A stretch of DNA of 64,000 nucleotides, from assembly GCA_035390125.1 (NCBI GenBank), contig DAOOTD010000001.1, positions 116,003-180,002 on the forward strand. Direction: 5' to 3'. This document shows, piece by piece, positions 53,980-64,000 of the stretch. The notes under the pieces were generated by a model that saw only the letters and a program-made list of their open reading frames with translations, had not been told where the DNA came from and made no database searches. The translations under genes were made by a program, and so were the position numbers. Each line of letters starts with the position of its first letter. Position 1 is the first letter of the stretch. Source of the stretch: Candidatus Moraniibacteriota bacterium. Lineage in GTDB: Bacteria; Patescibacteriota; Minisyncoccia; Moranbacterales; GWC2-37-73.

Positions 53980-54471
53980 TTATTTCCGTCTTCCTATGAA
54001 GAACGCAATTATAATAAAAGCGCCAATCATAGCAAGGACGAAGTAGAATAAATCTACTAATTTCCCCGCTATCTTATTTATCGACCGGCCCTGCTTTATT
54101 ACAGTTCCGGCAGTCGTGTTGTACGCGCCAGTCAGGTTGGATAACCAACCCTCATGTCTGTCTATTTTAACCGACAGATCCTTTAGCTGGCCGTCGACTT
54201 TCGCCTCGATATCGTTGGAAACTTCTTTTTGCGCTTCCAACTCCCCATTTATTCTGGCGAATTGACTATTTGTCGACTTTTTAAGATTAGTGACTTCAGT
54301 TTTCAGCTTTCTGAAGTCAGCAGGCGAAACCTCGGCCTCTGGAGGCGGAGGAGCTTCATATTGCGGACCTGCTATCACCTGGCGCTCTCCGTTAATCGTT
54401 ACGGCTTGTCCCATAGGAACAAACCCCACTACAACTGCAATGGCCACTAAGGCCAGAAAAGTCTTTTTCAT
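53980..54471 (-). CDS. Secreted coiled-coil protein with C-terminal TM anchor
   Basis: N-terminal signal/TM. PPPPEAE linker. C-terminal hydrophobic helix plus RRK. Confidence 0.5.
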   Translation of the reverse strand: MKKTFLALVAIAVVVGFVPMGQAVTINGERQVIAGPQYEAPPPPEAEVSPADFRKLKTEVTNLKKSTNSQFARINGELEAQKEVSNDIEAKVDGQLKDLSVKIDRHEGWLSNLTGAYNTTAGTVIKQGRSINKIAGKLVDLFYFVLAMIGAFIIIAFFIGRRK

Positions 54472-54533
54472 TTTTTCCTCCTCTTTATGTATTGAGTTCG
54501 GGCGAGCTTCCGAAGAAGCTCACCCGGTTAGTG

Positions 54534-55907
54534 TTACAGTTGCGGGACTTTCTCAACCCGCTTCTCCTTCGCAAACCGGTCGGCCGCATCCGGTCCATAA
54601 AGAACATCAATGCAACCTGCCCATAAGAAATAATCTTGGGCAATCAGCCGATCCGCTTCCGCTTGATTGGCACGAATATCATGCCCACGGAAGTAATTGC
54701 GTTCCGCGATCTTAAACTGTTCGATCGCCGAGTTGAGATATCGTTTATCTCCTGTACACTGGTACAGGTCAACATACGCTTCTGCCAACTTGGAGCGCAA
54801 CTGGAGGTTATTTAAGCACCATCTGGTGCACTCTTTGATACGCTGTTTCAACTCTTCAATCCGAGTAAAAATACTGCTCGGATCGCAAGCTTTCACTTGC
54901 GGTGCCGGAGCTGCCGGAGGAGGAACGACCTTAGGCTCAGGTTTCGGCGCCGGAGGCGGAGGGGGCGTACAAACATCAGGTTGGTACCCGACATTCGCAT
55001 ACGCTACCACCTTAACTTGGTATGCCACTTCTGTAAGGGAAAAGGCATTGCCGGTAACGGCTCCTAAAGAGCCTGACCCAGCACCTTTTCCGTCCACGCC
55101 GGAGCCAGTGAAACCGATTCCTAAACTGGAACCGGAATTATGCCTGTCAACCACAGAGTCCCAGTAAATTGCTACGTTAGTGGAACCGGTTTCTTCGACG
55201 GCCTGTAAAACCGTCTTAGCCAATACTTCATCTACTGGCCAGTTCCAGTCGCCAACGCCTTGGTAAACACCCAGTCTCCTAACTGAAGCGTTAGGGGCTA
55301 CATTTATAACTTTAATGATAGTGTTATCATCAATGCGATTATTGATTCGGCTACGTACCGAACCTTTAACTTTTTGAGAAGTCATCGCATTCCATATACT
55401 CCCGCGACCATCCATTAGCCGACCTGAATCGGCCATGGTTTTCAGCTCACCGTAGGTGAATTGGCTATAGTCTGGATCACAGACAACGCCTTTCCAACCC
55501 TTGGGCACTTCGGACGTCGGAGCGCCCACGAAGGCACTCAGTAACGGGGCAACTATGTGATTCGGCGCCTCGTTATTAATCAACATAGAGCTACTGTTAG
55601 CTCTGCTGTCGTTCCTGTTCATGTTCAGGTTGTCGTTCCTGTTCATGTTCAGGTTGTCGTTCCTGTTCATGTTCAGGTTGTCGTTCCTGTTGTTGATATT
55701 ATTTTGGTTATTGAGGTTATTAGCGTTGTTATTGCTAATATCCCCCACATTCGCACTGGCGTCGCCGCCAGTAGCACTGGCATCACCGCCGGTAGCGGTG
55801 GCGCGATTGTCATTCTCGAGTTCAATTTCGATGTCATCTGCGAACGCGAAGTTCGCAGACAGTACCATAATCACCGCGGCCAAAATGGCCAGAGCTTTTT
55901 TCTTCAT
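54534..55907 (-). CDS. Secreted repeat protein, paralog family A (N-terminal ATGGxASATGGxASA module, NRNDNLNM tandem repeats, Pro-rich linkers)
   Basis: Signal peptide. FADDIEIELENDNRATATGGDASATGGDASANVGDI shared with 56251 and 58643. SD AAGGAGGA. Confidence 0.55.
   Translation of the reverse strand: MKKKALAILAAVIMVLSANFAFADDIEIELENDNRATATGGDASATGGDASANVGDISNNNANNLNNQNNINNRNDNLNMNRNDNLNMNRNDNLNMNRNDSRANSSSMLINNEAPNHIVAPLLSAFVGAPTSEVPKGWKGVVCDPDYSQFTYGELKTMADSGRLMDGRGSIWNAMTSQKVKGSVRSRINNRIDDNTIIKVINVAPNASVRRLGVYQGVGDWNWPVDEVLAKTVLQAVEETGSTNVAIYWDSVVDRHNSGSSLGIGFTGSGVDGKGAGSGSLGAVTGNAFSLTEVAYQVKVVAYANVGYQPDVCTPPPPPAPKPEPKVVPPPAAPAPQVKACDPSSIFTRIEELKQRIKECTRWCLNNLQLRSKLAEAYVDLYQCTGDKRYLNSAIEQFKIAERNYFRGHDIRANQAEADRLIAQDYFLWAGCIDVLYGPDAADRFAKEKRVEKVPQL
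55608..55697. repeat. 24-bp tandem repeat x ~3.5 (gtcgttcctgttcatgttcaggtt) encoding (NRNDNLNM)n on the minus strand
   Basis: Read directly from the sequence. Confidence 0.8.
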
Positions 55908-56108
55908 GATTCCTCCTTGGCCTTTCGGGCCTTTAAATATGCTATTAAGTTGTGAAAGATCTTATGTAATTTATGCCGGAGCATATCTTACATATACCAT
56001 TATTTATATTTTTACAAGACTCCAAATCTTTATTATTACTTTTTTATGATTTGTGAAGTCCTGATTTAAATATAAACTTGTTTTCTAGGTACTAATTTAG
56101 AACATTAT

Positions 56109-56250: not shown

Positions 56251-57177
56251 TTAAATGAAATTAATTAAATATTTTTTTACACCAAATGAAGTGGCTGCTA
56301 GAGATATAACTGCAAGTCCGGCTAAAACATTGGTACCAGTTCCCGTGTTAGGTGCTTTTTTTTCACCAACGATAACCCTTGTTTTTCCGATTACATTGTG
56401 ATTCTCATCATATATATATTTGTATTTATATACATATGTTATTTTTCCATCATGACCATCGCGGCCATCTGTTCCATCATGTCCGTCATGACCGTCTGTT
56501 CCATCATGTCCGTCGTGACCATCTTCGCCGTCCTCCCCATCATGGCCATCATGACCCGGATCATCTATGTCTACATCAATCTCAGTATCAGTTCCAGTGG
56601 TTGAAGTTCCACCTGTTGTGGTTGAAGTTCCACCTGTGGCAGTGCTTGTAACTCCGGAAACACTGGTTGTGCTTGTGCTTGAAATCGTAGAAGCAGAATT
56701 TACAGTTGAAGTTGAAGAATTCATGCTGAAATTGTCGCTGTATGAAGTGCTGTCACTATAGCTAGAGTTTCCACTATTGTCATAGCTATGATCGGATCCA
56801 TGGTTGTCATAATTATCATGATCATGGCAACCCTCGCCTGAACGGTGGCAATAAGCTGAGGAATCACTATCATTGTTGTTCGTGTTTGAATTACTGTTCG
56901 TGTTTGAATTGTAATTCGTGTTTGAACTTATGTTAGTGTTTCTATTACTGATTGAATTGGAATTGTTTACAGTGTTGCTATTGCTGTTAGTGATATCACC
57001 AACAGATGCAGTGGCACTTCCGCCAGTGGCAGTGGCACTTCCGCCAGTTGATTCCGATTCATTTTCGTTATCTATGTTTATTTTAATGTCTGCAAACGCC
57101 ATATTGTTGGCAGCATAGAAAACGACTGCAGATATAACCGCTGATACTACGATAAAAATTATATTCTTCTTTGTCAT
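56251..57177 (-). CDS. Secreted surface protein, paralog family A, with (Gly-X-Asp)12 collagen-like His-rich repeat and C-terminal APNTG sorting-signal-like motif + TM + KKY
   Basis: Signal peptide. ADIKINIDNENESESTGGSATATGGSATASVGDI. Asn/Ser/Thr-rich. DPGHDGHDGEDGEDGHDGHDGTDGHDGHDGTDGRDGHDG. C-terminus KAPNTGTGTNVLAGLAVISLAATSFGVKKY. Confidence 0.6.
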   Translation of the reverse strand: MTKKNIIFIVVSAVISAVVFYAANNMAFADIKINIDNENESESTGGSATATGGSATASVGDITNSNSNTVNNSNSISNRNTNISSNTNYNSNTNSNSNTNNNDSDSSAYCHRSGEGCHDHDNYDNHGSDHSYDNSGNSSYSDSTSYSDNFSMNSSTSTVNSASTISSTSTTSVSGVTSTATGGTSTTTGGTSTTGTDTEIDVDIDDPGHDGHDGEDGEDGHDGHDGTDGHDGHDGTDGRDGHDGKITYVYKYKYIYDENHNVIGKTRVIVGEKKAPNTGTGTNVLAGLAVISLAATSFGVKKYLINFI

Positions 57178-57305: not shown

Positions 57306-58157
57306 TTATTTCACCAATTCTGTCTTGATAATCAGCCTATTATAGGTTGTTCCAATCGGCCAGCAGGTCGACAAGGTTAGGACCGGACCATTTGCCGGAG
57401 CAAATATTCTTTCATCATCTGGAGAAGTGATAAATTTATCAGACACTCTGTATTGGTAGATAATAACTCTTCCATTTGCCTGGATGGTTTTAGCAACTAT
57501 AATATCCCCTATTTCCAAATCATTTAAATTTTTAAAGATATGATTGTAGTCGCCTTTTGCCCATAAATAATTACTTGAATGGCCGGAGACAACTGAATTT
57601 CCATTTTGTCCGAAAGAAGCAGTTTTCGGATAATGGTTTATTCCGTTTTCAAGGTCTTTCAACATGTCATCTTCCTTATCGCTTTTTGACCAGACTACTG
57701 GAGCAGCAATATTTATCTTAGAAATTTTTATTTCAACAAATGGTTTTGCTTCTCCCGGCGCATCCGGATCATATCCGTTTATTATTTCCTGCTTATCAGA
57801 ATATGCATCTCCATCAGTATCAGAGTTAAGAGGATTTGTACCGTGGACGTATTCCAAGTAGTTTGGAAGTTTGTCTTTGTCAGGATCATCATCCAGTCCG
57901 CTATTAGAATCGTTTAGTCCATTGCGGTTTTTCCATTCACTGTATGTTTCAATCGAAAAAGTTGTACTGCCCAAGCGGGTGCTTATGTCATTATTTTTGG
58001 CCACACTGGTAGCTTCTTTTTCACCATCAGTTACGATTGAATTTTTATTCGGGCTAAAATCAAGGTTTAGGATATAAAACAGAACAATAAAAATAACCAG
58101 AAAAAGAATCACTGACAATAGAAACTTTTTTAAATATTTTTTAATTTTTTCAGACAT
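57306..58157 (-). CDS. Sortase (transpeptidase) with N-terminal TM and Asp-rich putative Ca-binding repeats
   Basis: Catalytic TLSTCWP (TLxTC), His in VVSGHSSN, Arg in TTYNRLI. DTDGDAYSD / DDDPDKD Asp-rich segments. Confidence 0.8.
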   Translation of the reverse strand: MSEKIKKYLKKFLLSVILFLVIFIVLFYILNLDFSPNKNSIVTDGEKEATSVAKNNDISTRLGSTTFSIETYSEWKNRNGLNDSNSGLDDDPDKDKLPNYLEYVHGTNPLNSDTDGDAYSDKQEIINGYDPDAPGEAKPFVEIKISKINIAAPVVWSKSDKEDDMLKDLENGINHYPKTASFGQNGNSVVSGHSSNYLWAKGDYNHIFKNLNDLEIGDIIVAKTIQANGRVIIYQYRVSDKFITSPDDERIFAPANGPVLTLSTCWPIGTTYNRLIIKTELVK

Positions 58158-58642: not shown

Positions 58643-59380
58643 TTAGCAACTAATGGGTAAATATTTTTTTATTCCGGTTATAATAGTCAACAGAGACATG
58701 ATTGAAATTACTGATAAAGCAAAAGCATTGCTTCCAGTTGCAGGCACTTTCCAATAGTGTCTGTGCCCGTCCCTATCAAATGTGAAATAGTGTCTGTGCC
58801 CGTCCCTGTCAATAGTATAATGATGCTCACGTCCATCACTATCTATGTCTATGTGGACATCTGAATCTTGATCAGTATAGGAAGTTCCGCCTGTTGTAGT
58901 TGAGGTTCCGCCTGTAGAAGTGCTTGAAACACCGGAAACCTGGCTTGTGCTTGAGCTCGAAGTTGAAGAACTAGAATTTACACTTGAACTTGAAGAATTT
59001 ATGCTAGTACTATTGCTATATGAGGTGCTTCTGCTGCAATTAGAACATGTGCTGTTGCTGTTATCTGAGTCATCATTGGAATTATTATTGGAGTTATAAT
59101 TTGTATTGGAATTATAATTAGTGTTGGAATTGATATTAACATTCCTGTTTGTGATTGAACTGGAGTTACTTACACTGTTACTATTGCTGTTGGTAATATT
59201 GCCAATAGAAGCACTGGCGCTTCCCCCTGTTGCACTGGCGCTTCCCCCTGTTGATTCTGATTCATTTTCATTGTCTATATGTATATGCGTATCTGCAAAT
59301 ACAATATCTGCAGTGCAAAACAAGGCAACGGCTAAAAAAGCTATACATGCGATATAAATTACATTTTTCTTATTTTTCAT
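58643..59380 (-). CDS. Secreted surface protein, paralog family A, with His-rich DRDGHRHY repeats and C-terminal VPATG sorting-signal-like motif + TM + KKY
   Basis: Signal peptide. ADTHIHIDNENESESTGGSASATGGSASASIGNI. HHYTIDRDGHRHYFTFDRDGHRHYWKVPATGSNAFALSVISIMSLLTIITGIKKY. Confidence 0.6.
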   Translation of the reverse strand: MKNKKNVIYIACIAFLAVALFCTADIVFADTHIHIDNENESESTGGSASATGGSASASIGNITNSNSNSVSNSSSITNRNVNINSNTNYNSNTNYNSNNNSNDDSDNSNSTCSNCSRSTSYSNSTSINSSSSSVNSSSSTSSSSTSQVSGVSSTSTGGTSTTTGGTSYTDQDSDVHIDIDSDGREHHYTIDRDGHRHYFTFDRDGHRHYWKVPATGSNAFALSVISIMSLLTIITGIKKYLPISC

Positions 59381-59545: not shown

Positions 59546-60715
59546 TTATAATTGAGCAGTTATATTGATCTCTTGTCCGTTTCTATCAATAACAAATTCA
59601 ACCCGGCTGCCCTTTTTGTTTTTATTGATTAAATTTGAAAGAGGATTATCCAGATTAACTTCTTCTCCATTGACTGAAATAATGATGTCATTTATTTTAA
59701 TTCCCGCCAATTCAGCCGGTGATCCTGAAATTATTGCCAATCCTTGTTTGCCAGAGGGTGAATAAATCAAAGCCCCTCGATCACGATTTAATTTGTTTGT
59801 TATGGAAAATTCTTTGGTTATGGATATATAATATGCCCCAAAAAATGGACGATAATTCAATTCATTATTTACAGCCAGGCTTATTGAATTTCTGACAGCA
59901 TTGGAAGGGATTTGAAAATATTTATCCTGGCCATTTATATTAATCATGCCGATAATTCCTATCATATCTCTGCTGTATCCAACAACTGGCCCTCCTATAT
60001 ATTCTTTTTGATTTTTCAAATCATCTTCAAATACGCCTTCTAATTTTTCAGAAACTGCAACTGCCTTGCCTCCTAAATTAAAGTTTTTATTAATATGGCT
60101 TAAAAGTCCTGCCTCATATCGGTTTTGGTATTCACCGAATGAATTTCCTATAGCTATCAATTTTTTACCTGGACGTAAGCTGGATGAATCGGCCAATGAA
60201 ACTGTGGTTAAATTATTGGCATCAATTTTAAGGAAGGCTAAGTCTGTAAACTCATCGATGCCTATAAATTTTGCATCATAATGGCTGCCATTAAAAAGAA
60301 AAACTTTGTAATTTGCATCTTTTTCAATTATTGATGTGCGATAAGTGACGATTAATCCGTCGCTTGTTACTATTACACCTGTTCCGCTCCGATTCTCTAT
60401 CTTATTCTCTCTTGTGATAATATCCTTCTGATTTACTATTGAAACAATATTTACAACTGCGTTTGATGCTAAAGATGCCACCTCATTAATAGAATCATCC
60501 TCCTTTATGGTAACTTGTTGAGTATTGTTTATAATCGTCACATTTTCAGCTGCTCGATTCAAAAAATTTATACGGGAAAGATACTTATTTGTCCTGATAA
60601 AAGGAAGAATATGCTGGTCAAAATATACCCCGCCAATTCCGCCAATAAAAAAAACCAGGAATAGTATAGATATTCCCTTAGCAATTTTTCTTGGATTTTT
60701 CAAATAATTGATCAT
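59546..60715 (-). CDS. HtrA/DegP-like trypsin-fold protein with C-terminal PDZ, predicted catalytically inactive
   Basis: Trypsin-like region aligns to DegP, but TNNHVV reads TYRTSI (no His) and GNSGGPLV reads EYIGGPVV (Ser to Ile). The Asp (TDLAFLKI) is retained. PDZ: GSPAELAGIKINDIIISVNGEEV. Confidence 0.6.
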   Translation of the reverse strand: MINYLKNPRKIAKGISILFLVFFIGGIGGVYFDQHILPFIRTNKYLSRINFLNRAAENVTIINNTQQVTIKEDDSINEVASLASNAVVNIVSIVNQKDIITRENKIENRSGTGVIVTSDGLIVTYRTSIIEKDANYKVFLFNGSHYDAKFIGIDEFTDLAFLKIDANNLTTVSLADSSSLRPGKKLIAIGNSFGEYQNRYEAGLLSHINKNFNLGGKAVAVSEKLEGVFEDDLKNQKEYIGGPVVGYSRDMIGIIGMININGQDKYFQIPSNAVRNSISLAVNNELNYRPFFGAYYISITKEFSITNKLNRDRGALIYSPSGKQGLAIISGSPAELAGIKINDIIISVNGEEVNLDNPLSNLINKNKKGSRVEFVIDRNGQEINITAQL

Positions 60716-60742: not shown

Positions 60743-61519
60743 TTATACTACGGGTAGCCATTTTGTGCTTAGGAGTATTAAGGTAACTAAAAATCCGAAA
60801 AAAATCATATTAGCAACAACGCGTCTTTTTGACAATTCATTAAGAAAATGAGATTTTATTAGGTCCCAAAAGACATAGTAGAAAATAAGACTAATAACGC
60901 TGGTTGTCAAGTATCCGAATGGCCAAAAGTTTAAGGTCCATGCAATCTCCGACATTATGAGCCCCAGAATAAGGCTATACTTCATGGCATCCTTCTTGTT
61001 TTCATTTATAAGCCAAAAGTATTGAAAACTTATAAATATGGTAGCTATTGTTAATAAAAGTATGAATATCCAGAGTGGAATATCAAAATTTAAATATATG
61101 CCATACGACATTGAGTAGAAAGTAAAAAAGGTTGCAATACTTCCTGCTGCAATAATGCCACGGGCAGTTTCATCTTTATAATAAACATGCAATCTATAGA
61201 GTGAAATATGAACAAGGTAGTACACGATTGATGAAAGAATAATAAGTGCATATTGCTGGTTTCTTGATTGGACAAAATACAAAAGGCCCCAAGTTGAAAG
61301 AGTGAATAATAAGGGCATTGGAGTCATACTGCGTCTTTGTGATACGCGTCTGACAATTTGATAGAAGTATGTGAGAAGGATGATAATTAATAAAATTAAA
61401 GCCCATATCCCAGTTTTTGAAAAAGACAAAATGGTACTACTAAAATAATCGGAAGATATAAATTGAGCTAAAAGAAAAAAGATAATACTGTATAGAAATA
61501 TTTTTATATGGAAAAACAT
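60743..61519 (-). CDS. Hypothetical polytopic membrane protein
   Basis: About 8 TM helices. No family recognised. Confidence 0.45.
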   Translation of the reverse strand: MFFHIKIFLYSIIFFLLAQFISSDYFSSTILSFSKTGIWALILLIIILLTYFYQIVRRVSQRRSMTPMPLLFTLSTWGLLYFVQSRNQQYALIILSSIVYYLVHISLYRLHVYYKDETARGIIAAGSIATFFTFYSMSYGIYLNFDIPLWIFILLLTIATIFISFQYFWLINENKKDAMKYSLILGLIMSEIAWTLNFWPFGYLTTSVISLIFYYVFWDLIKSHFLNELSKRRVVANMIFFGFLVTLILLSTKWLPVV

Positions 61520-61633: not shown

Positions 61634-64000
61634 TTATTTAAAAGCAATTTTTCCATTTTCCAGCTTTACATTTACTGTATCTCCTTCTGCTATCTTCTTT
61701 TCAATTATTTGCAAAGCTAATTCGTCCAGGATCTCATTTTGAATTATTCTTTTAAGTGGACGTGCGCCATAAATAGGGTCATATCCTTTTTGTGTCAAGT
61801 ACATTTTAGCTTCGTTGGATATTTTTAATTTTATATTTTTTTCACCAAGACGCTTTTGGACTATATTTATCTGCAAATCAACAATCTGTTGCAATATTTT
61901 TTTATTAAGTGGGTGAAAAATAATTATTTCATCAATCCTGTTCAGAAATTCTGGTTTAAATTGTTCTTTTAGACTGGCTTGAATTTTGTTTCGCATCTCA
62001 TCTTCCCCATCAATACACTCCTTGCGTTCACTTTGAAAACCAAAGGATTGCATTTTATAAATAATATCGCTACCAACATTGGAAGTCATTACGATGACTG
62101 AATTTTTAAAGTTAACTACTCTGCCTTTAGCATCAGTAAGCCGTCCATCCTCAAGTATCTGCAATAGAATATTAAATACTTGCGGATGAGCCTTTTCAAT
62201 TTCATCAAATAAAATTACACTATATGGTCTGCGACGGATAATTTCAGTAAGTTGGCCACCCTCTTCATAGCCAACATATCCGGGAGGCGAACCTATCATT
62301 TTTGCTGTCGAATGTGCTTCCATATATTCACTCATATCCAATCTTACTAATGACTTTGGATCGTTGAATAAAAATTCAGTCAATGTTTTAGCGAGTTCTG
62401 TTTTTCCAACCCCCGTAGGTCCCAAGAAAATAAATGAGCCTATCGGACGATTTTCTTCAGAAATTCCTGCACGAGATCTGCGTATAGCATTTGAAATAGA
62501 TTTAATAGCTTCATCTTGTCCTATGACTTTTTTAGCCAATTCTTTTTCCATATAGGCAAGTTTTTCTATCTCACTTTGTAACATTTTTGAAATAGGTATG
62601 CCTGTCCAGCGAGAAACTACTCTTGCAATGTCTTCTTCAGTTATTTCTTCTTTTAATATAGAGCCTTCTTTTTGTATTTTGTTAAGCTTTTTTTCTTCTT
62701 CTTTTATCTTTTTTTCCAAAATAGGAATTTTTCCATAGCGGATTTCAGCTACCTTGTCTAGTTCTCCTTTACGCTCAGCAAACTCAGCCTCTGACTTCAA
62801 TTTGTCGATATCTTTTTTGTGTTGTCTGCTTGCAACAATAAGATCTTTTTCTGTTTTCCACTGTAATGTTAAGCTGTTGGATTTTTCTTTAAGTTCAGCA
62901 AGATTCTTGTTTATCTGTAATATTTTTTTGCGGGAATCTCTGGCCTTATCTTTCTGAATAGCTTTTTTTTCAATTTCAAGCTGCCGTATTTTTCTCTCCA
63001 TCTGATCTATTTCGATCGGCATCGAATCTATCTGGATGCGCAGTGCTGAAGCGGCTTCATCAATAAGATCAACTGCCTTGTCCGGAAGAAATCTATCGGT
63101 TATATATCGTGAAGATAAATTTACTGCAGATTGAAGAGCGTCATCAGTGATTTTTACGCCATGATGCAATTCATATTTTTCCTTTATGCCGCGCAGAATT
63201 GCTATCGAATCCTGAATAGAAGGTTCAGTTACTATTATTGGCTGAAATCTTCTTTCTAGTGCAGCATCTTTTTCTATATACTTCTGATATTCTTTTGTGG
63301 TTGTTGCTCCGATTGTTCTTAGATTTCCTCGTGCTAAAGCCGGCTTTAGCATATTTGATGCATCTAGAGATCCTTCTGTGGCCCCGGCTCCTACCAAGGT
63401 GTGCAATTCATCTATAAATAAAATATATTTTCCAGAAGATTTCTCTGTCTCTTTTAAAATGGCTTTTAATCTATCTTCAAATTCCCCCCTAAATTTAGCT
63501 CCTGCAAGCAGTGATCCAAGGTCAAGAGAAATTAATTCCTTATCCTTTAATGTTTCCGGAATATCTCCGGACGCAATCCTTTGCGCTAAGCCTTCAACGA
63601 TAGCCGTTTTTCCTGTTCCAGCCTCGCCTATCAAAACCGGATTATTTTTTGTGCGTCGGCTTAAAACCTGCATAACACGACGTATTTCCTCGTCGCGACC
63701 TATAACAGGATCAAGTTTGTCCTGGCGAGCTAGACCGGTTAGGTTAATTGTATATTTTTCAATGACCTGAAATTTACCTTCTGGTTCAGGTGAATCTACC
63801 TTCTGCGATCCTCTGATTTCAGAAAGTATTTGCAACACTAAGTCATAGGTTATGTTTTTAGATTCGAAATTTTTTTTCACTGGAGAATTAACAGAAAGCA
63901 AAGAAAGAAGCAGATGTTCCGTGGATACAAAGTCATCTCCTAAATGTTCCATTTCTCTCTCGGCTTGATCAAGAATCTGCAATAATGTCGGGGTTATAAA
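61634..64000 (-). CDS. clpB: AAA+ chaperone ClpB (5'-truncated; N-terminus lies beyond the window end)
   Basis: Two AAA+ modules (GEAGTGKT Walker A; [12 protein letters not shown]), a long middle coiled-coil (ClpB M-domain) and C-terminal GARPLKR. The frame is open to position 64000. Confidence 0.85.

What the first reader, a model, noticed from the sequence alone, without database searches (positions are those of the whole stretch)
59546..60715. HtrA/DegP homolog with PDZ domain but without catalytic His and Ser (pseudoprotease)
The trypsin-fold region aligns motif-by-motif with DegP, but TNNHVV reads TYRTSI and GNSGGPLV reads EYIGGPVV, while the Asp is kept. A dead HtrA next to the sortase and adhesin locus could act as a chaperone or adaptor rather than a protease.
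Basis: partly seen in the sequence, partly recalled or inferred. Interest (0 to 1): 0.5.

Follow-up and report, generated by a model that had tools for sequence, protein, structure and literature searches.

The report
Conserved dead HtrA with membrane partner
This gene encodes a membrane-anchored HtrA-type "protease" that has lost its catalytic histidine and serine; it is kept under strong selection across a whole lineage of tiny uncultured bacteria (Moranbacteria), always beside the same uncharacterised membrane protein, so it most likely binds proteins rather than cutting them.

Summary
The ORF at 59546-60715 (minus strand, 389 aa) has an N-terminal membrane anchor, an HtrA protease fold and one PDZ domain. 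Thr127 sits at the catalytic His position and Ile240 at the Ser position; Asp158 is kept. Three independent alignments agree, so no alternative alignment restores the triad.

This is not a one-off decay:
- All 120 closest homologues and 59 representative clusters (down to about 30% identity) lack the triad, and they fall on one side of a single tree split.
- The three catalytic positions vary freely, and Asp is Asn in most orthologues.
- The gene is under strong purifying selection (median dN/dS 0.07).

The conserved context is not the sortase/adhesin cluster, which lies downstream in only 18 of 59 loci and is never adjacent. The fixed neighbour is a polytopic membrane protein, DUF5656, directly upstream in 75 of 76 loci. 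ClpB and an intact HtrA paralogue usually lie further upstream (51 of 68 loci). In the window's own organism the slot for the intact copy is empty.

Best reading: a non-catalytic, PDZ-dependent binding protein working with DUF5656 in envelope protein quality control. It is a new variant of a known kind (HtrA pseudoproteases, such as MamO), and public records name it an active S1C serine protease.

The parts
59546..60715 (-). Dead HtrA gene (389 aa): membrane anchor, linker, inactive HtrA protease domain and one PDZ domain
   Evidence: ORF; Pfam Trypsin_2 plus PDZ; AF2 model; Foldseek hits to DegP/DegQ/MucD; identical to NCBI HOW60304.1/HRZ33810.1, named 'S1C family serine protease'
60620..60676 (-). 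N-terminal transmembrane anchor (residues about 14-32). The preceding 13 residues carry 4 Lys/Arg, which suggests an N-in orientation with the domains outside the cell
   Evidence: Hydropathy and charge tally; long helix 8-42 in the AF2 model
60485..60547 (-). Juxtamembrane linker motif ENVT[VI]INKTEQ...ED.SIN (residues 57-77), conserved in the dead family only
   Evidence: Joint alignment of 82 dead and 51 intact sequences: mean frequency of the commonest residue in the linker is 0.63 in the dead family against 0.49 in the intact family. Low pLDDT in the monomer model
59870..60457 (-). Inactive chymotrypsin-fold protease domain (residues 87-282)
   Evidence: Active-site loops that are near-invariant in the intact paralogues are variable here
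60335..60337 (-). Codon ACA = Thr127 at the catalytic His position
   Evidence: This position is S/G/T/N/E/K/Q/A across orthologues
60242..60244 (-). Codon GAC = Asp158 at the catalytic Asp position (Asn in most orthologues)
59996..59998 (-). Codon ATA = Ile240 at the catalytic Ser position (GNSGGP has become EYIGGP)
59549..59848 (-). PDZ domain (residues 290-389). The carboxylate-binding loop F-F-G-A-Y-Y is conserved (Gly293 and Tyr296 are shared with the intact HtrAs)
   Evidence: Pfam PDZ_2/PDZ_6; conservation
60743..61519 (-). DUF5656 polytopic membrane protein (258 aa), the invariant upstream partner; it ends 27 nt before the dead htrA start and no terminator was detected between them
   Evidence: Pfam PF18900 31.4 bits against a cut-off of 23.3; adjacent in 75 of 76 loci and in distant members; AF2 pLDDT 89.9; terminator scan
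61634..64000 (-). clpB (its 5' end lies beyond the window edge), usually part of the conserved cluster
   Evidence: Pfam AAA_2, AAA_lid_9 and ClpB_D2-small; full gene of 863-870 aa in L005/L006; ClpB lies upstream of the pair in 51 of 68 informative loci

Best explanation
The gene encodes a functional but non-catalytic HtrA paralogue, i.e. a pseudoprotease. It is tethered to the outer face of the cytoplasmic membrane by one N-terminal helix. It keeps the HtrA protease fold and a PDZ domain with an intact-looking peptide-binding loop, but it has no nucleophile, no general base and no GNSGG oxyanion loop.

The most likely mode of action is binding rather than cutting. The PDZ domain and the remnant substrate cleft would hold exported or misfolded envelope proteins, acting as a holdase or adaptor. 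It would do this together with the polytopic membrane protein DUF5656, which is encoded immediately upstream and probably co-transcribed. The pair belongs to a protein-quality-control neighbourhood (PPIase, intact HtrA, ClpB).

Shown here: HtrA fold, loss of the triad, clade-wide conservation, purifying selection and obligate synteny with DUF5656. Inferred: topology, co-transcription, a physical complex with DUF5656, and chaperone or adaptor activity.
For: (1) Triad loss is shown by three alignment methods.
(2) It is not a pseudogene. Of 80 species-level genomes retrieved, 77 supplied a dead-gene segment of at least 330 aa for the alignment. Median dN/dS is 0.069 over 24 pairs, against 0.059 for DUF5656, 0.037 for the intact HtrA and 0.024 for ClpB.
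(3) The clade is old. All 120 nearest homologues and 59 full-length representative clusters at 50% identity lack the triad, and one tree split separates them from all 90 His-Asp-Ser proteins.
(4) Constraint has moved. Active-site, L1 and L2 loops are near-invariant in the intact paralogues but variable here. The PDZ loop, a juxtamembrane linker motif and a segment at residues 195-229 are conserved.
(5) DUF5656 is directly upstream in 75 of 76 loci with a median gap of about 36 nt. This holds for members only 30-38% identical. DUF5656 is a small family of 308 hits, named only in Moranbacteria/Parcubacteria records.
(6) The intact HtrA dropped out of the cluster in at least six lineages while the DUF5656/dead-HtrA pair stayed together.
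(7) Precedents exist. Protease-dead DegP S210A is sufficient to rescue a lethal secretion phenotype (PMC5023192). MamO is an HtrA-family pseudoprotease whose function needs an attached polytopic membrane (TauE) domain (PMC4794232).
Against: There is no experimental or structural evidence of any interaction with DUF5656 or with client proteins.

A mirror-tree test found no specific co-evolution between the dead HtrA and DUF5656 once phylogeny (ClpB) was controlled for: partial r 0.14, p about 0.08.

One diverged lineage (L095) has an unrelated SBF-family transporter in place of DUF5656.

The DUF5656 fold has no informative solved relative, so it gives no functional clue.

Oligomeric state, which is central to HtrA chaperone cages, could not be examined.
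Confidence: 0.6

Rival explanations
1. Regulatory subunit of the active paralogue. The dead HtrA would co-assemble with, or allosterically activate or restrain, the intact HtrA encoded about 3.5 kb upstream. This would resemble MamO promoting MamE proteolysis without catalysis, or mixed Deg5/Deg8-type oligomers in plants (the latter from general knowledge).
For: An intact HtrA paralogue lies in the same cluster in 51 of 68 informative loci. A weak but nominally significant residual co-variation exists between dead and intact copies after controlling for ClpB (partial r 0.23, p about 0.009). MamO provides a precedent (PMC4794232).
Against: The intact copy is missing from the cluster in 17 of 68 loci, in at least six separate lineages, including the window's own organism. 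The dead gene stays under selection in those lineages. The two paralogues share only about 32% identity. The LA-loop region differs in length between them by about 20 or more residues, so a shared trimer interface is not evident.
Confidence: 0.22
2. Dedicated helper for the sortase and surface-protein (adhesin) locus downstream.
For: In the window, a sortase (57306-58157) and proteins with LPXTG-like signals lie 0.2-3 kb downstream on the same strand. A sortase is downstream in 18 of 59 loci, mostly among close relatives.
Against: The sortase is never adjacent and its distance varies from 0.7 to 3.6 kb. It is absent in 41 of 59 loci. In other lineages the downstream genes are ABC transporters, glycosyltransferases or ribosomal genes.
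Confidence: 0.08
3. Still an enzyme that uses non-canonical catalytic residues.
For: The fold and the GGP part of the L1 loop are retained. A few basal clade members keep the Ser and Asp and lack only the His (for example P0339, P0371 and P0294).
Against: No Ser, His, Cys or Lys in the protease domain is invariant across the clade. In the 39-sequence alignment reaching down to 30% identity, the only invariant protease-domain positions are Asp119, Gly120, Asp154 and Gly183. The positions of the nucleophile, the general base and the residues flanking the oxyanion hole vary freely.
Confidence: 0.04
4. Decaying pseudogene or annotation artefact.
For: Loss of the catalytic residues on its own could suggest decay.
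Against: The gene was recovered in all 80 species-level genomes retrieved, 77 of which supplied a segment of at least 330 aa for the alignment. Length is constant at about 389 aa, dN/dS is about 0.07 and the AF2 model is confident.
Confidence: 0.01

Closest known systems
Gram-positive-type membrane-anchored HtrA (TM anchor, protease domain, single PDZ; e.g. M. tuberculosis HtrA Rv1223, Bacillus HtrA) and, more broadly, the DegP/DegQ/DegS family (MEROPS S1C)
   Same: Same domain order and fold. Foldseek E about 1e-21 to 1e-24 against DegP, DegQ, MucD and M. tuberculosis HtrA. Full-length Pfam Trypsin_2 match plus PDZ. N-terminal membrane anchor. Genomic neighbourhood of protein-folding genes (PPIase, ClpB).
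   Different: No catalytic His or Ser, and GNSGG has become EYIGG. Scores 129 bits against the TIGR02037 cut-off of 416. The LA-loop region is shorter than in the intact paralogues. It carries its own conserved juxtamembrane motif. It is always paired with DUF5656.
MamO, the HtrA-family pseudoprotease of magnetotactic bacteria (PMC4794232)
   Same: An HtrA-family protease domain that has lost catalysis and is retained next to an active paralogue (MamE). Its function depends on an associated polytopic membrane module: the TauE domain is fused in MamO, whereas DUF5656 is a separate adjacent gene here. That paper also concludes that retained inactive copies imply non-catalytic roles.
   Different: MamO nominally keeps the His and Asp, has Thr in place of Ser, has no PDZ and binds metal through a di-His motif. 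The present protein lacks both His and Ser, keeps a PDZ, has no TauE domain and occurs in non-magnetotactic CPR bacteria. A metal-binding motif was not examined.
Protease-dead DegP (S210A) acting as a chaperone (PMC5023192; also H. pylori HtrA chaperone activity, PMC6892219, known here only from its title)
   Same: Shows that an HtrA scaffold without its nucleophile can carry out a biologically sufficient client-binding function at the membrane or periplasm.
   Different: Those are engineered point mutants of bifunctional enzymes. Here the inactive state is natural, ancient and accompanied by relaxation of the whole active-site region.

Membership tests
HtrA/DegP family (MEROPS S1C; TIGR02037 degP_htrA_DO) | Chymotrypsin-like two-barrel protease domain | tested here: met
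   Pfam Trypsin_2 profile positions 1-144 of 144, E 2.8e-13; Foldseek to DegP E 6.7e-24, probability 1.0
HtrA/DegP family (MEROPS S1C; TIGR02037 degP_htrA_DO) | At least one C-terminal PDZ domain | tested here: met
   PDZ_2 E 1.5e-11 and PDZ_6 E 6.3e-09; the carboxylate-binding loop glycine is conserved
HtrA/DegP family (MEROPS S1C; TIGR02037 degP_htrA_DO) | His-Asp-Ser catalytic triad | tested here: not met
   Thr127, Asp158 and Ile240 occupy the triad columns in three independent alignments. All 120 closest homologues also lack His and Ser
HtrA/DegP family (MEROPS S1C; TIGR02037 degP_htrA_DO) | L1 / oxyanion-hole motif GNSGG(P/A)L | tested here: not met
   The motif reads EYIGGPVV; only GGP is retained across the clade
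HtrA/DegP family (MEROPS S1C; TIGR02037 degP_htrA_DO) | Score above the curated NCBIfam cut-off | tested here: not met
   TIGR02037 129.5 bits against a cut-off of 416.2; all HtrA/DegP/DegQ/DegS equivalog models are far below their cut-offs
HtrA/DegP family (MEROPS S1C; TIGR02037 degP_htrA_DO) | Trimer-based oligomer | not testable with these tools
   Only monomer prediction is offered, and model coordinates cannot be retrieved
MamO-type pseudoprotease | HtrA-family protease domain that is catalytically dispensable or inactive | tested here: inconclusive
   Inactivity is inferred from sequence only; no assay is possible
MamO-type pseudoprotease | [quoted passage not shown] | tested here: not met
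   The C-terminus is a PDZ domain and Pfam finds no TauE domain. A separate membrane protein, DUF5656, is encoded adjacent instead
MamO-type pseudoprotease | Surface di-histidine metal-binding motif | not tested
   This motif was not examined here. In passing, no His is listed among the protease-domain positions conserved at 90% or more in the dead family
DUF5656 (PF18900), for the partner gene 60743-61519 | Score above the Pfam gathering threshold | tested here: met
   31.4 bits against 23.3. All but one of the 120 listed homologues carry PF18900

The most novel reading that the evidence does not exclude
The dead HtrA and DUF5656 form a previously unrecognised two-protein envelope module specific to Moranbacteria and related CPR bacteria. 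A PDZ-bearing pseudoprotease would dock on a novel-fold polytopic membrane protein through the dead-family-specific juxtamembrane motif. It would capture or hand over exported proteins, for example at or near the Sec translocon, with no proteolysis involved. In lineages such as the window's organism, which may have no active HtrA, this module would be the only HtrA-type function left.
Probability: 0.3. Interest if true: 0.62.

Novelty: new variant of a known kind. Interest (0 to 1): 0.45.

Why it matters
Pseudoenzymes are usually found one at a time. Here a whole, old and diversified clade of HtrA pseudoproteases is retained under strong selection in genome-reduced CPR bacteria, where little dispensable coding is expected to persist (general knowledge of CPR genome reduction).

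The clade has an obligate partner that has never been studied. DUF5656 appears in no paper in the searched library, and its confidently predicted fold has no informative solved relative.

The result has three practical consequences:
- It gives a concrete, testable hypothesis for the function of DUF5656.
- It provides a natural experiment separating the binding role of HtrA from its cutting role.
- It exposes a systematic annotation error: the source names seen for these proteins are 'S1C family serine protease', 'serine protease Do' or '2-alkenal reductase', which would inflate inferred proteolytic capacity in metabolic reconstructions of CPR genomes.

Tried and rejected
- Alternative alignment rescuing the triad: rejected. 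The profile-HMM alignment is gapless and at the highest posterior-probability symbol at all three motifs.
- Conserved alternative nucleophile: none found.
- Second HtrA in the window: tblastn with an intact paralogue hits only the dead gene itself.
- Intact HtrA elsewhere in the window's organism. A metagenome scan with the sister genome's intact HtrA returned only 5 loci because the single-protein patterns were too specific. Candidate intact proteins P0146, P0147 and P0191 proved to be cluster copies from other organisms. No listed intact homologue sits on a contig of 278,679, 279,536 or 378,234 bp. The question is unresolved.
- Locus retrieval with a very diverse alignment failed for lack of a conserved stretch. 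A closer alignment worked.
- The mirror-tree co-evolution test gave weak signals only.
- The promoter scan was not above the shuffled expectation (17 found against 14.0 +/- 3.3), so operon structure rests on the 27-nt gap and conserved adjacency.
- Rfam and tRNA scans of the window found nothing.

Full report
**1. The observation**

The window carries an ORF from ATG at 60715 to TAA at 59546 on the minus strand, 389 aa long. It matches Pfam Trypsin_2 over the whole profile (residues 111-254, E 2.8e-13) and PDZ_2/PDZ_6 at residues 319-388. It matches NCBIfam HtrA/DegP models only far below their curated cut-offs, for example TIGR02037 at 129.5 bits against 416.2.

phmmer against PDB finds HTRA1 (E 2e-28), DegP, DegQ, HhoA, MucD and AlgW. 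An AlphaFold2 model built on 39 family sequences is confident (pLDDT 86, pTM 0.76). It shows a long N-terminal helix (8-42), a low-confidence linker (54-70), a two-barrel protease domain and a PDZ domain. Foldseek places the model firmly with DegP, DegQ, MucD and M. tuberculosis HtrA (E about 1e-21 to 7e-24, probability 1.0).

**2. The catalytic residues**

The HTRA1 alignment, a MAFFT alignment with intact paralogues and an independent hmmsearch with a profile of 51 intact Moranbacteria HtrAs all agree. Thr127 stands at the His position, Asp158 at the Asp position and Ile240 at the Ser position. GNSGGP has become EYIGGP. The HMM alignment is gapless and at the highest posterior-probability symbol through all three motifs.

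In an alignment of 39 clade members reaching down to 30% identity, no Ser, His, Cys or Lys in the protease domain is invariant. There is thus no sign of a substitute catalytic apparatus.

**3. A clade-wide state, not a one-off**

The organism is a Candidatus Moranbacteria (Patescibacteria/CPR) MAG. The exact protein is deposited as HOW60304.1/HRZ33810.1, named 'S1C family serine protease', and is found on contigs of up to 378 kb.

- All 120 closest homologues (57-97% identity, almost all 389 aa) lack His and Ser, and more than half also have Asn at the Asp position.
- In an exhaustive search of 1.84 billion cluster representatives, the 30 best representatives (35-76% identity) are all triad-less. 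The first His-Asp-Ser protein appears at rank 32. About 60 of the top 150 representatives are triad-less, and the residues at the three positions vary freely.
- In a neighbour-joining tree, one split separates all 59 full-length triad-less representatives from all 90 His-Asp-Ser proteins, including the Moranbacteria intact paralogues. This fits a single ancient inactivation. The caveat is possible long-branch attraction.

**4. Selection**

Median dN/dS, estimated with the Nei-Gojobori method on closely related genome pairs:

| Gene | Median dN/dS | Pairs |
|---|---|---|
| dead HtrA | 0.069 | 24 |
| DUF5656 | 0.059 | 21 |
| intact HtrA | 0.037 | 6 |
| ClpB | 0.024 | 12 |

Mean pairwise identity in 39 genomes carrying all four genes is 0.50 (dead HtrA), 0.60 (intact HtrA), 0.48 (DUF5656) and 0.73 (ClpB). 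The dead gene is clearly maintained.

The pattern of constraint has shifted. In the intact paralogues, TNkHVV, DiAviK, IIQTDAAINPGNSGGPL and the L2 loop are nearly invariant. In the dead family these regions are variable. Instead, the dead family conserves:
- a juxtamembrane linker motif (eNVTvINKTEQ...Ed.Sin, residues 57-77);
- eYQNr (residues 195-199);
- tfNlsGktvsssEK.EGVf (residues 211-229);
- much of the PDZ domain, including the carboxylate-binding loop (Gly293, Tyr295, Tyr296).

**5. Genomic context**

Eighty species-level genomes were retrieved and analysed by tblastn and ORF calling.

- DUF5656, a polytopic membrane protein of about 258 aa, lies directly upstream of the dead htrA in 75 of 76 informative loci. 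The median gap is about 36 nt. In the window the gap is 27 nt, with no terminator detected.
- An intact HtrA (TNxH and GNSGG motifs, 415-450 aa) lies further upstream in 51 of 68 informative loci. ClpB sits between them in 39 loci, and the intact HtrA directly abuts DUF5656 in 12.
- The wider neighbourhood is MurJ-LepA-DivIC-PPIase-ferredoxin-[HtrA]-ClpB-DUF5656-dead HtrA.
- The pairing with DUF5656 persists in members only 30-38% identical to the query. The unannotated neighbour in L098 matches the DUF5656 profile at hhalign probability 99.9%.
- One diverged lineage (L095) carries an unrelated SBF-family transporter in that position.
- A sortase is found downstream in 18 of 59 loci, at 0.7-3.6 kb and never adjacent. 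The sortase/adhesin neighbourhood in the window is lineage-specific and not part of the conserved module.

**6. Is there an intact HtrA in this genome?**

In the window's own organism (279-kb contigs, L005/L006) the ferredoxin gene is followed directly by clpB. The slot that holds the intact htrA in sister genomes (L041, L008) is empty. No second HtrA-like sequence exists in the 64-kb window or in the roughly 6.7 kb of L005 that extends beyond its clpB end.

Mapping on a tree of the dead proteins shows that the intact copy has left the cluster in at least six separate lineages, while the DUF5656/dead-HtrA pair was never separated.

I could not establish whether the organism has an intact HtrA elsewhere. 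The metagenome scan was uninformative. Candidate proteins belonged to other organisms. No listed intact homologue sits on a contig whose length matches the organism's known contigs.

**7. The partner, DUF5656**

DUF5656 is a small family: 308 hits at E <= 1e-3 among 5.8 billion proteins, and every source name that gives a taxon is Moranbacteria, Parcubacteria or Patescibacteria. It has a strongly conserved WPFGYLTT...YYV.WD motif.

**8. Mechanism**

Shown:
- an HtrA fold without a nucleophile, general base or oxyanion-loop motif;
- a retained PDZ peptide-binding loop and an N-terminal membrane anchor;
- purifying selection;
- obligate synteny with DUF5656, and frequent synteny with ClpB, PPIase and an active HtrA.

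Inferred:
- The protein sits on the outer face of the membrane. The 13 residues before the helix carry 4 Lys/Arg.
- It is co-transcribed with DUF5656.
- It acts by binding exported or misfolded proteins rather than cleaving them, together with DUF5656.

Two precedents support this. Protease-deficient DegP S210A alone rescues a lethal secretion phenotype (PMC5023192). MamO is an HtrA-family pseudoprotease whose role needs its attached TauE membrane domain and which promotes MamE proteolysis non-catalytically (PMC4794232). The parallel between MamO (dead protease fused to a polytopic membrane domain) and this locus (dead protease next to a polytopic membrane protein) is an analogy, not shown homology.

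The main rival is a regulatory subunit of the intact paralogue. It is weakened, but not excluded, by the repeated loss of the intact copy from the cluster. A mirror-tree analysis gave only weak signals: dead-DUF5656 partial r 0.14 (p about 0.08) and dead-intact 0.23 (p about 0.009).

**9. Comparison and novelty**

By fold and domain order this protein is an HtrA-family homologue. By the defining catalytic features it fails membership of the S1C peptidases (no triad, no L1 motif, below curated cut-offs). It is better described as a non-peptidase homologue.

HtrA pseudoproteases are known (MamO and relatives). What appears undescribed is this large CPR clade with its invariant DUF5656 partner. 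I rate it a new variant of a known kind, of moderate interest. It corrects a widespread annotation and gives DUF5656 its first functional lead, but the function remains inferred and the organisms are uncultured.

Noticed in passing
window 54534-55907, 56251-57177, 58643-59380 (all minus strand); sortase 57306-58157: Three paralogous secreted proteins share an N-terminal motif (ADI.I..ENE/DN...TGG[SD]A[ST]ATGG[SD]A) followed by Asn/Ser-rich low-complexity sequence. Two end in a sortase-type signal ([VA]P[AN]TG, a hydrophobic helix, then KKYL) and carry His/Asp-rich repeats (DGHDGHDG; DRDGHRHY). The sortase between them has a bacterial TSP3 repeat. This looks like a lineage-specific surface-protein cassette, possibly metal-binding.
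   Followed up: partly
window 54001-56000: G+C rises to 0.48 against about 0.35 for the rest of the window. The rise coincides with the 457-aa surface protein gene, which has a Pro/Ala-rich stretch (PPPPPAPKPEPKVVPPPAAPAP). The gene has no Pfam hit.
   Followed up: no
L005/L006 6392-6490 (just beyond the window's clpB end): In the window's organism the ferredoxin-clpB intergenic region is only about 80-100 bp. Sister genomes carry a 1.3-kb intact htrA at this spot, so this is a clean absence with no visible remnant.
   Followed up: partly
L095 4928-7176: One diverged dead-HtrA lineage (P0259, 41% identity) has an SBF-family (PF01758) transporter gene ending 8 nt before the dead htrA, in place of DUF5656. 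This may be a partner swap to a different polytopic membrane protein.
   Followed up: partly
L096 149-3631: In a member only 32% identical, the DUF5656/dead-HtrA pair sits directly downstream of secY. This hints at a link with protein export.
   Followed up: no
L097 4157-5967: In this Moranbacteria-like contig, lepA is called as two ORFs (276 and 318 aa), suggesting a frameshift or assembly error. Here an intact htrA follows the PPIase gene, but no clpB, DUF5656 or dead htrA follows it.
   Followed up: no
L008, L009, L018, L031, L033 and other loci: Many GTDB records titled 'uncultured Bdellovibrionales bacterium' carry loci fully syntenic with Moranbacteria and 42-69% identical to them. The record titles are probably mislabelled taxonomically.
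   Followed up: no
window 1-64000: No tRNA gene (ARAGORN) and no Rfam family at gathering threshold were found anywhere in the 64 kb.
   Followed up: no
P0294, P0339, P0371: A few deep members of the triad-less clan keep the Ser within a recognisable xNSGGP or RGSGGP loop (plus Asp, or Glu in P0294) and lack only the His. They may be intermediates in the inactivation. P0294 is nonetheless paired with DUF5656.
   Followed up: partly
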